A DNA stretch of 64,000 nucleotides, taken from the NCBI RefSeq assembly GCF_965641715.1, contig NZ_OZ282453.1; one strand, 5' to 3'. Each line of letters starts with the position of its first letter. Positions within the stretch are counted from its first letter, which is position 1. Source of the DNA: Escherichia coli. GTDB taxonomy: Bacteria; Pseudomonadota; Gammaproteobacteria; Enterobacterales; Enterobacteriaceae. Positions 63,236 through 63,395 of this stretch are shown piece by piece. The position numbers and the translations under genes were made by a program. The notes under the pieces are model-generated. The model was not told the DNA's origin. It did no database searches and was given only the letters and a program-made list of their open reading frames with translations.

Positions 63236-63395
63236 AATTGTTGTCTCTTTGATTATGTACAATCATATGTACAAAGAAAAATTCATGCCGCTGATTGTAC
63301 ATTTTGGAGGTATCAGAGCATAGCAGAACATGATCAGTAGGTGTATTTGTAGCCAAAGAACATTTGTACATGCAGCAATCTTTGCTCTATTGACA

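What the first reader, a model, noticed from the sequence alone, without database searches (positions are those of the whole stretch)
63255..63371. Four TGTACA hexamers between the prfC start and the dinI-like promoter
TGTACA occurs at 63256-63261, 63268-63273 (as the direct repeat ATGTACA-N5-ATGTACA), 63296-63301 and 63365-63370, all within ~115 bp spanning the prfC ribosome-binding region and the divergent SOS promoter. Four copies of a palindromic hexamer in so short an AT-rich stretch is more than expected by chance and could be binding sites for a regulator. The predicted RF3 N-terminus ([13 protein letters not shown]) also differs slightly from what I remember for K-12, but I cannot verify that.
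Basis: seen in the sequence. Interest (0 to 1): 0.3.

Follow-up and report, generated by a model that had tools for sequence, protein, structure and literature searches.

The report
Prophage attachment-site arm beside prfC
The four TGTACA hexamers are real and not chance, but they belong to the end of a common lambda-like prophage inserted in the start of prfC, where they are most likely docking sites for the phage integrase and not operators for a regulator of prfC or dinI.

Summary
TGTACA sits at 63256, 63268, 63296 and 63365. Only 12 of 200,000 dinucleotide-preserving shuffles of the intergenic region reach four copies.

The region is not K-12 DNA. Window 63188 onward is the integrase-distal end of a ~47.7-kb cdtI/Ayreon-like lambdoid prophage inserted in the 5' end of prfC. 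The crossover core is the 14-bp GGGTGAGAAATAAT at 63174-63187. The phage supplies prfC codons 1-16, which explains the odd RF3 N-terminus.

In the free phage attP there are eight TGTACA copies, four on each side of the core. The integrase has an N-terminal arm-DNA-binding domain (PF13356).

The layout holds across diverged relatives, including an SXT/R391 ICE. Every prfC junction with the pair places a GTACA-N7-GTACA pair 79/67 bp before the conserved Phe codon, and a second pair lies before int. A sister clade that targets lepA keeps the same geometry but has GTCCA at every site.

Best reading: these are integrase arm-type sites (confidence about 0.7). The main rival is excisionase sites. Integration at prfC is already known. 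I found no published description of the arm motif. Interest is modest.

The parts
61649..63235 (-). Hybrid prfC (RF3, 528 aa). Codons 17 onward are chromosomal and codons 1-16 are phage-supplied.
   Evidence: RefSeq annotation of the 100%-identical strain EC416; translation; K-12 comparison.
63174..63187 (.). 14-bp att core GGGTGAGAAATAAT, identical in attB, attP, attL and attR. It encodes I-I-S-H-P of RF3 on the minus strand, and the crossover lies within it.
   Evidence: Four-way comparison of K-12 attB, phage cdtI attP, window attR and EC416 attL. GenBank LC727876 annotates a 14-bp 'duplication due to insertion' at the same place.
63188..63235 (-). Phage-supplied replacement for the first 16 codons of prfC ([16 protein letters not shown]).
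   Evidence: Present in the attP of phages cdtI and Ayreon and absent from K-12.
63256..63273 (.). Sites 1 and 2: tandem pair TGTACA-N6-TGTACA with a 12-bp period, 21-38 bp upstream of the prfC ATG. This is the family-conserved far-arm pair of the att site.
   Evidence: A GTACA-N7-GTACA pair sits at -79/-67 from the Phe codon in E. coli-type, L124, L143, L156, L157/158/163 and L168/R997 junctions. It is the only such pair in the 64-kb window.
63296..63301 (.). Site 3 (TTGTACAT). With flanks it forms a perfect 11-nt inverted repeat with site 1 (ATGTACAATCA / TGATTGTACAT). Its position is lineage-specific.
   Evidence: I3. Relatives carry a third GTAC-containing site at variable distances.
63365..63370 (.). 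Site 4 (TTGTACAT), 20 bp upstream of the dinI -35 hexamer and still inside the conserved att module.
   Evidence: Conserved in cdtI, Ayreon and the Stx2c phage. Ayreon has a fifth copy further out.
63188..63400 (.). Integrase-distal arm of the att site (P arm in lambda nomenclature, so this junction is attR). Its outer limit is where homology with phage Ayreon ends.
   Evidence: Alignment A1. 699 of 5,426 complete E. coli genomes carry this 213-bp arm, in the rows shown always beside prfC.
63390..63439 (+). Promoter-like region of the dinI-like gene: -35 TTGACA at 63390-63395, -10 AAAAAT at 63414-63419, and LexA-box matches at 63396-63411 and 63424-63439.
63455..63715 (+). DinI-like gene, the first prophage gene inside the junction.
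   Evidence: Pfam PF06183, E = 1.4e-19; annotation.
63188..64000 (.). Prophage DNA that runs off the window. In EC416 the element is about 47.7 kb and ends at an integrase gene next to yjjG.

Best explanation
[quoted passage not shown] The phage carries its own copy of the first 16 prfC codons, a ribosome-binding site and presumably a promoter, so RF3 is still made with a slightly different N-terminus. The 213 bp from 63188 to about 63400 are the integrase-distal arm of the attachment site. The four TGTACA hexamers in it, together with four more in the integrase-proximal arm at the other end of the prophage, are most likely the arm-type sites read by the N-terminal arm-binding domain of the phage tyrosine integrase. 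By analogy with lambda Int, integrase protomers would hold a core site with their C-terminal domains and an arm site with their N-terminal domain. That bridging folds the att DNA into the complex that carries out integration (attP x attB) and, with the excisionase, excision (attL x attR). Shown here: the junction, the core, the substitute N-terminus, the eight-site layout, the arm-binding domain, and family-wide conservation of motif and spacing. Inferred: that Int, and not the excisionase, is the protein that binds, and that the sites are needed for recombination.
For: Junction and core: K-12 homology stops inside prfC and phage homology starts there. The four att sites share only GGGTGAGAAATAAT, which GenBank annotates as the insertion duplication.

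Site layout: attP of cdtI and Ayreon has TGTACA at -427, -358, -330 and -318 (this arm) and at -66, -54, -45 and -15 from the int ATG. Nearly every repeat family found in attP is centred on TGTACA, including a 35-nt direct repeat that links the two arms 264 bp apart.

Integrase: Int carries Arm-DNA-bind_3 (PF13356, E = 1.9e-16), a central domain and a catalytic domain. Its N-terminus matches the solved arm-binding domains 3JTZ and 3JU0.

Conservation near int: integrases 84-51% identical in Salmonella, Xenorhabdus, Serratia, Pseudomonas and Shewanella sit at the same prfC junction. They keep a GTACA pair 12 bp apart at +184/+196 or +153/+165 from the Phe codon, plus a single site beside the int Shine-Dalgarno sequence. 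The spacers between these sites are unalignable.

Unbiased scan: a scan of viral contigs for the FAIISHP-coding sequence, with no GTACA in the pattern, returned 532 kb. Every GTACA-N7-GTACA pair in it lies at -79/-81 or +183/+185 from that sequence and none lies elsewhere.

Wider family: the SXT/R391 ICE R997 (Int 39% identical) has the same pair at -80/-68 and two more pairs beyond the core.

Covariation: the lepA-targeting clade (SPN3UB, p16773_4, pFL6-60) keeps the geometry but reads GTCCA at all sites. The residues that separate its arm-binding domain from the GTACA clade (positions 29, 41 and 51-54) fall on the predicted beta-strands 28-32, 38-46 and 49-58.

Literature: the cdtI phage Int and SXT Int are placed in one prfC-targeting cluster with a DUF4102 arm-binding domain (PMC8138268).
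Against: There is no binding or mutational evidence. The core TGTACA is palindromic, whereas classical lambda arm sites are not, so orientation cannot be read from most sites. Tandem 12-bp-period direct repeats are also what winged-helix excisionases bind. No IHF consensus was found in attP, so the bending step assumed by the lambda analogy has no support here. Sites 3 and 4 are conserved only in the E. coli lineage. The older subscription papers on SXT and cdtI att sites could not be read, so the motif may already have been described.
Confidence: 0.7

Rival explanations
1. The GTACA repeats are binding sites for the phage excisionase (recombination directionality factor) and not for Int. Xis would polymerise head-to-tail on the 12-bp-period pairs and bend the arms for excision.
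For: The family-conserved units are tandem direct repeats with a 12-bp period, as expected for winged-helix RDFs. All elements examined carry a related HTH_17-type excisionase, so the motif could co-vary with Xis as well as with Int. In KplE1, RDF sites lie on the int-side junction and overlap the int promoter (PMC2951348).
Against: The motif is on both arms, and it is the only motif shared by both arms. An integrase with an arm-binding domain needs arm sites, and no alternative candidate exists. A further inverted single site sits beside the int Shine-Dalgarno sequence in every lineage. CTTTCA repeats in the int-side spacer are an unclaimed alternative candidate for RDF sites.
Confidence: 0.15
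2. The hexamers are operators for a transcription factor, host or phage, that controls the hybrid prfC and/or the divergent dinI-like gene.
For: Sites 1-2 lie 21-38 bp upstream of the prfC ATG and site 4 lies 20 bp upstream of the dinI -35 hexamer. A palindromic hexamer suits a dimeric regulator. In KplE1, arm sites that overlap a promoter do repress it, so a secondary regulatory effect of Int occupancy is conceivable.
Against: The same motif recurs beside int, 250 bp across the core. It persists in Ayreon, which lacks dinI. It occurs in elements from Acinetobacter, Moraxella, Pseudomonas, Shewanella and Proteus, which argues against a host factor. Its distance to the recombination core is fixed (-79/-67) whatever lies upstream. 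The lepA clade switches every copy to GTCCA in hosts from the same order (Salmonella, Enterobacter, Edwardsiella). No convincing sigma-70 promoter for prfC overlaps the sites.
Confidence: 0.05
3. The cluster is a chance product of AT-rich intergenic sequence.
For: The window as a whole is not enriched for TGTACA (14 observed, 10.5 expected).
Against: Only 12 of 200,000 local shuffles reach four copies. There are eight copies in attP. Positions are conserved across integrases down to about 39% identity.
Confidence: 0.01

Closest known systems
Lambda attP arm-type sites (P1, P2, P'1-P'3) bound by the N-terminal domain of lambda Int
   Same: A short motif, distinct from the core, is repeated on both arms of attP. 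Adjacent sites occur on the int-side arm. The cognate integrase is a tyrosine recombinase with an N-terminal arm-binding domain. The expected role is intasome assembly and directionality.
   Different: The arm-binding domain family differs (PF13356/DUF4102, not the lambda type). The motif core is palindromic (TGTACA). There are eight sites instead of five. The arms are longer, with sites 69-183 bp and 165-221 bp from the core. No IHF consensus was detected. One arm must also encode the N-terminus of the target protein.
[quoted passage not shown]
   Same: The target is the same IISHP-coding stretch of prfC. The strategy is the same: the element supplies a new 5' end for prfC. The integrase belongs to the same cluster (PMC8138268; 39% identity). 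The GTACA pair sits at the same -80/-68 position in R997 attP.
   Different: SXT/R391 is an ICE and not a lambdoid phage. Its xis and int lie beyond the att site in a different gene order, with int downstream of the srp genes. Its int-side pairs lie at about +160 and +396. Its substitute N-terminus is MANQDFLNEINKRRT.
Phage cdtI, phage Ayreon and Stx1a/Stx2c prophages at prfC (Asakura 2007; PMC10132054)
   Same: They share essentially the same int-att module. The arm is 98-100% identical, the integrase is 97-98% identical, and the 14-bp duplication is the same.
   Different: Cargo differs. The window's prophage (as in EC416) diverges from cdtI after dinI and carries other genes.
KplE1 (CPS-53) IntS arm sites that overlap the intS promoter in attL (PMC2951348)
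   Same: The integrase is a DUF4102-type. Arm sites lie immediately upstream of int inside the junction, which predicts negative autoregulation. The -15 and -54/-66 sites beside int in this family are laid out in the same way.
   Different: The arm motif differs (a TAAA-containing motif) and the target differs (argW tRNA). That arm is outside this window. The window's arm overlaps the upstream region of prfC and not of int.

Membership tests
Arm-type integrase-binding sites of a heterobivalent tyrosine-integrase att site | The sites lie within the att site, flanking a core where strand exchange occurs | tested here: met
   The core at 63174-63187 was defined from attB, attP, attL and attR. The sites lie 69-183 bp from it.
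Arm-type integrase-binding sites of a heterobivalent tyrosine-integrase att site | The same motif, unrelated to the core sequence, is repeated on both arms of attP | tested here: met
   Four plus four TGTACA copies. All major repeat families in attP are centred on it.
Arm-type integrase-binding sites of a heterobivalent tyrosine-integrase att site | The cognate integrase has an N-terminal arm-DNA-binding domain | tested here: met
   PF13356 at residues 3-90, E = 1.9e-16. Matches PDB 3JTZ and 3JU0. The predicted fold is one helix, four strands, then helices, with mean pLDDT 85.
Arm-type integrase-binding sites of a heterobivalent tyrosine-integrase att site | Motif and spacing are conserved or co-vary with the integrase across relatives while the spacers drift | tested here: met
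   GTACA is kept down to 39% Int identity. GTCCA replaces it at every site in the lepA clade. The pair is fixed at -79/-67.
Arm-type integrase-binding sites of a heterobivalent tyrosine-integrase att site | The Int N-terminal domain binds the sites directly, and recombination requires them | not testable with these tools
   This needs EMSA or footprinting and att-site mutagenesis.
prfC-targeting elements of the SXT cluster (IntSXT subgroup) | Insertion in the 5' end of prfC, with the element supplying a replacement 5' coding end | tested here: met
prfC-targeting elements of the SXT cluster (IntSXT subgroup) | The integrase belongs to the DUF4102-bearing cluster that contains the cdtI and SXT integrases | tested here: met
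   97-98% identity to the Ayreon and Stx-phage integrases, and the arm is 98% identical to cdtI. 39% identity to the R997 Int. Classification from PMC8138268.
Excisionase (RDF) binding sites | Tandem direct repeats confined to one arm, between the core and the Int arm sites | tested here: inconclusive
   Tandem 12-bp-period pairs are present, but on both arms. The RDFs are homologous across the family, so covariation cannot discriminate.
Transcription-factor operator of prfC or dinI | The sites track the regulated promoter and not the recombination module | tested here: not met
   The sites persist without dinI (Ayreon) and beside int. Their distance to the core is fixed.
LexA (SOS) boxes | CTGT-N8-ACAG consensus | tested here: not met
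   The two LexA-box matches are at 63396-63411 and 63424-63439. None overlaps a TGTACA hexamer.

The most novel reading that the evidence does not exclude
GTACA(W)A pairs with a 12-bp period may be a shared, so far undescribed arm-site code and intasome layout for the whole SXT cluster of DUF4102 integrases. This would cover lambdoid phages, SXT/R391 ICEs and relatives from Moraxella to Pseudomonas. One pair is locked 79/67 bp before the Phe codon of the GTPase P-loop region. A second pair lies at a distance that changes in steps of three helical turns (+184 against +153). A sister clade that retargeted from prfC to lepA changed the central base of every site (GTACA to GTCCA) together with residues on the beta-sheet of its arm-binding domain. 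If so, the arm specificity of these clinically important elements can be predicted and tested by swapping. In addition, Int occupancy of the pair 21-38 bp upstream of the substitute prfC start could couple recombination to RF3 expression.
Probability: 0.55. Interest if true: 0.45.

Novelty: new member of a known kind. Interest (0 to 1): 0.33.

Why it matters
For the window itself the result is a correction. An apparent regulatory cluster upstream of an essential-pathway gene is really the scar of a prophage carried by about 13% of complete E. coli genomes, and the odd RF3 N-terminus is phage-encoded. More broadly, the comparison gives a concrete, testable map of candidate integrase arm sites. 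The map includes the motif, the number of sites, exact spacing to the core, and a natural specificity switch. It applies to the integrase cluster that moves Stx- and Cdt-converting phages and the SXT/R391 resistance ICEs into prfC. Such a map would help in annotating att boundaries, predicting cross-reactivity between co-resident elements at prfC, and engineering these integrases.

Tried and rejected
1. Footprinting among close relatives (window, cdtI, Ayreon, Stx2c phage). The arms are almost identical, so this says nothing about which bases matter.
2. The search for related loci with the integrase in viral contigs. It returned only integrases 96-100% identical, mostly cut at the int start.
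3. IHF consensus WATCAANNNNTTR in attP. No match inside the att region at one mismatch or fewer, and the total was at chance level.
4. Sigma-70 scan for a prfC promoter. The only minus-strand hit is TCTACA-16-TATTAT at 63445-63418, inside the dinI control region and outside the att module shared with Ayreon. What drives prfC remains unresolved.
5. Rfam scan of 63000-64000. Nothing found.
6. Literature search for TGTACA with integrase and attP. It returned only Gateway attB primer sequences.
7. Searches for arm-type sites at prfC or in SXT. No description found. Burrus and Waldor 2003 and Asakura 2007 are not held.
8. Separating Int from Xis by looking for elements with unrelated RDFs. This failed because all the RDFs are weakly related.
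9. Using SXT-mobilised genomic islands as a test case. Dropped, because they integrate at yicC and not prfC.
10. My first reading, that sites 1-2 and 3-4 have opposite orientation (8-mer ATGTACAA against TTGTACAT). Downgraded, because the core is palindromic and the family consensus TGTACAWA does not settle the orientation of sites 3 and 4.

Full report
**1. The observation.**
TGTACA is at 63256, 63268, 63296 and 63365, exactly as reported. The direct repeat ATGTACA-N5-ATGTACA is at 63255-63261 and 63267-63273. The 64-kb window as a whole is not enriched: 14 copies against 10.5 expected. The local cluster is far from chance. Only 12 of 200,000 dinucleotide-preserving shuffles of the 219-bp intergenic region reach four copies. 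Only 9 of 20,000 shuffles reach four copies of any palindromic hexamer. No other place in the window has four copies of a palindromic hexamer within 120 bp. K-12 has [22 protein letters not shown].

**2. What the region is.**
- Megablast against 5,426 complete E. coli genomes shows that K-12-type genomes match the window only up to about 63215, inside prfC. Strain EC416 matches the whole stretch at 100%.
- The sequence from 63200 onward matches phages: cdtI, PhiR63_1 and 2H10 at 98%, and Stx1a/Stx2c phages at 95%.
- In EC416, prfC is followed by a DinI-like gene, cargo genes, lambda-like tail, head and lysis genes, a tyrosine integrase, a 69-bp prfC 5' remnant and yjjG. That is a prophage of about 47.7 kb inserted in the 5' end of prfC.
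- I compared K-12 attB, phage cdtI attP, the window junction and the EC416 int-side junction. The only shared sequence is GGGTGAGAAATAAT at window 63174-63187. On the prfC strand it encodes I-I-S-H-P.
- GenBank record LC727876 annotates the same 14 bp as the duplication caused by insertion.
- The phage carries its own version of prfC codons 1-16 plus upstream sequence. Integration therefore swaps the N-terminus instead of destroying the gene.
- 699 of 5,426 complete E. coli genomes carry this 213-bp arm, and in every row shown it lies beside prfC.
- prfC is a documented integration site for Stx and Cdt phages (PMC10132054; PMC8138268) and for SXT/R391 ICEs (PMC5812530; PMC4542580).

**3. The hexamers in the context of the att site.**
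- In the free phage attP (cdtI, Ayreon) there are eight TGTACA copies. Four are at -427, -358, -330 and -318 from the int ATG; these are the four of the finding. Four more are at -66, -54, -45 and -15, on the other side of the core.
- The repeat finder on attP returns almost nothing except TGTACA-centred families. One is a 35-nt direct repeat (77% identity) that links the two arms 264 bp apart. Another is a perfect 11-nt inverted repeat between sites 1 and 3.
- Homology between the window and Ayreon, which has no dinI, ends at 63400. All four sites therefore lie inside the portable int-att module.
- The integrase (407 aa) has an Arm-DNA-bind_3 domain (PF13356) at residues 3-90, a central domain and a catalytic domain. 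Its N-terminus matches the solved arm-binding domains of genomic-island integrases 3JTZ and 3JU0.

**4. Relatives.**
*Junctions next to int.* Integrase homologues are abundant. Salmonella (84% identity), Xenorhabdus (64%), Serratia (61%), Pseudomonas (53%) and Shewanella (51%) all sit next to a prfC 5' remnant. The DNA between core and int is unalignable among them. Even so, each keeps a GTACA pair 12 bp apart and a single site beside the int Shine-Dalgarno sequence. Measured from the conserved Phe codon, the pair is at +184/+196 in E. coli, Salmonella, Xenorhabdus and Serratia. It is at +153/+165 in Pseudomonas and Shewanella. The difference is 31 bp, or three helical turns.

*More distant phages.* Acinetobacter phage ABMM1 (45%), Moraxella phage Mcat16 (41%), a Morganella phage-plasmid (50%) and two Logan contigs (56-57%) show the same pairs.

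*The prfC-side arm, sampled without bias.* I scanned viral contigs for TTYGCNATHATHTCNCAYCC, the sequence that encodes FAIISHP. In the 532 kb returned, every GTACA-N7-GTACA pair lies at -79/-81 or +183/+185 from that sequence, and none lies elsewhere. About one would be expected by chance. The -79 pairs belong to six mutually diverged junction types: E. coli-type, L124, L143, L156, L157/158/163 and L168. Junctions that look like native prfC (L109, L110, L132, L149) have none. Sites 1 and 2 of the finding are this conserved pair, and it is the only such pair in the 64-kb window.

*SXT/R391.* ICE R997, whose Int is 39% identical, has the pair at -80/-68 before its substitute prfC start (MANQDFLNEINKRRT). 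It has two further pairs about 160 and 396 bp beyond the core.

*Consensus.* The pair sites give a consensus of about TGTGTACA(T/A)A(A/T)T.

**5. A natural specificity switch.**
Salmonella phage SPN3UB, Enterobacter p16773_4 and Edwardsiella pFL6-60 have integrases 44-46% identical to the query. Their attP carries a mimic of the lepA 5' end (MKNIRNFSIIAHID), so they evidently target lepA by the same strategy. Their layout matches the prfC elements: a pair 79/67 bp before the Phe codon, a pair about 155/167 bp after it, and inverted sites beside int. Every site reads GTCCA instead of GTACA. The positions that separate their arm-binding domains from all eleven GTACA-clade domains include 29 (S/G to W), 41 (Q to F) and 51-54. 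These fall on the predicted beta-strands 28-32, 38-46 and 49-58 of the domain (AlphaFold model, mean pLDDT 85). In the lambda and Tn916 integrase N-domains the beta-sheet is the DNA-reading surface; that point rests on established knowledge and was not tested here.

**6. Mechanism.**
The best-supported reading is that these are arm-type sites. Int protomers would bridge a core half-site and an arm site, fold the att DNA, and so enable integration and, with the excisionase, excision.

Four arguments support this:
- The motif is on both arms, and it is the only motif shared by both arms.
- The integrase has an arm-binding domain.
- Distance to the core is rigidly conserved, and the int-side pair shifts by three whole helical turns.
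- All sites change together in the lepA clade.

What is not shown is which protein binds. The excisionases next to int are all weakly related HTH_17 proteins. They co-inherit with Int and could in principle read tandem 12-bp repeats, so this is the main rival (about 0.15). A host factor is unlikely because hosts range from Moraxella to E. coli, and because the GTACA and GTCCA clades both occur in Enterobacterales hosts. A dedicated prfC or dinI operator is unlikely because the sites follow the att module and not those genes. Int occupancy of the pair 21-38 bp upstream of the prfC ATG might also affect prfC transcription, as arm sites do for intS in KplE1 (PMC2951348). That remains open. I could not find a convincing prfC promoter.

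**7. Novelty and score.**
Prophage integration at prfC, the 14-bp duplication and the integrase cluster are all known. I found no description of the TGTACA/GTACA arm motif or its geometry in the searchable literature. The key older papers were not readable. The finding is therefore an ordinary att-site arm, a new member of a known kind, that comes with a useful family-level prediction. Interest is 0.33.

Noticed in passing
window 63390-63439: The dinI-like gene has a TTGACA-18-AAAAAT promoter-like site and two LexA-box matches (CTGT-N8-ACAG) at 63396-63411 and 63424-63439. These are the only two in the 64-kb window. A weak minus-strand promoter-like site (TCTACA-16-TATTAT, 63445-63418) brackets the second box and points toward prfC.
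   Followed up: partly
L085 (SPN3UB), L221 (Enterobacter p16773_4), L222 (Edwardsiella pFL6-60), within 320 bp upstream of int: A sister integrase clade carries a mimic of the lepA 5' end (MKNIRNFSIIAHID) in attP. This implies integration into the 5' end of lepA by the strategy used at prfC. All its arm sites read GTCCA instead of GTACA, and a LexA-box-like CTGT-N8-ACAG lies about 110 bp upstream of int.
   Followed up: partly
L217/L219 (SXT/R391 ICE R997, record NZ_KY433363.1 around its origin): The ICE attP has GTACAA pairs at -80/-68 before the substitute prfC start and at about +160 and +396 beyond the core. The circular record shows an extra ATCATC at the junction (FAIIIISHP), probably from how the record was joined.
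   Followed up: partly
L168 and L169 (one 47.6-kb IMG/VR contig, 3300038708_000015): An SXT-type prfC-side arm abuts a prophage whose integrase is only 32% identical to the query, which suggests two elements in tandem at prfC. That prophage's own prfC-side arm has no GTACA.
   Followed up: no
L004 27412-27660 (EC416 int-side junction) and L089 (Salmonella): CTTTCA occurs four times in the spacer between the core and the int-side pair (-197, -186, -111, -81 from the int ATG) and is partly kept in Salmonella. These are possible excisionase or bending-protein sites.
   Followed up: no
L086 1528-1535 (phage Ayreon): Ayreon has a fifth TGTACA (TTGTACAC) just beyond the point where its homology with the window ends. 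It also has G instead of T immediately next to the core (GAAATAATG), which is the K-12 base.
   Followed up: no
window 63697-64000 and L002 20950-22600 (EC416): Homology with phage cdtI stops after dinI (about 63696). In place of the cdt genes, the EC416-type prophage carries a hypothetical gene, a truncated reverse-transcriptase gene and a TIR-domain protein gene, which may be defence cargo. Most of this lies beyond the window end.
   Followed up: no
L124, L143, L168, window (prfC-side arms): A third GTAC-containing site lies 16, 28, 40 or 51 bp upstream of the conserved pair in R997/L168, the window, L124 and L143 respectively. That is a step of roughly 12 bp. This may be chance.
   Followed up: no
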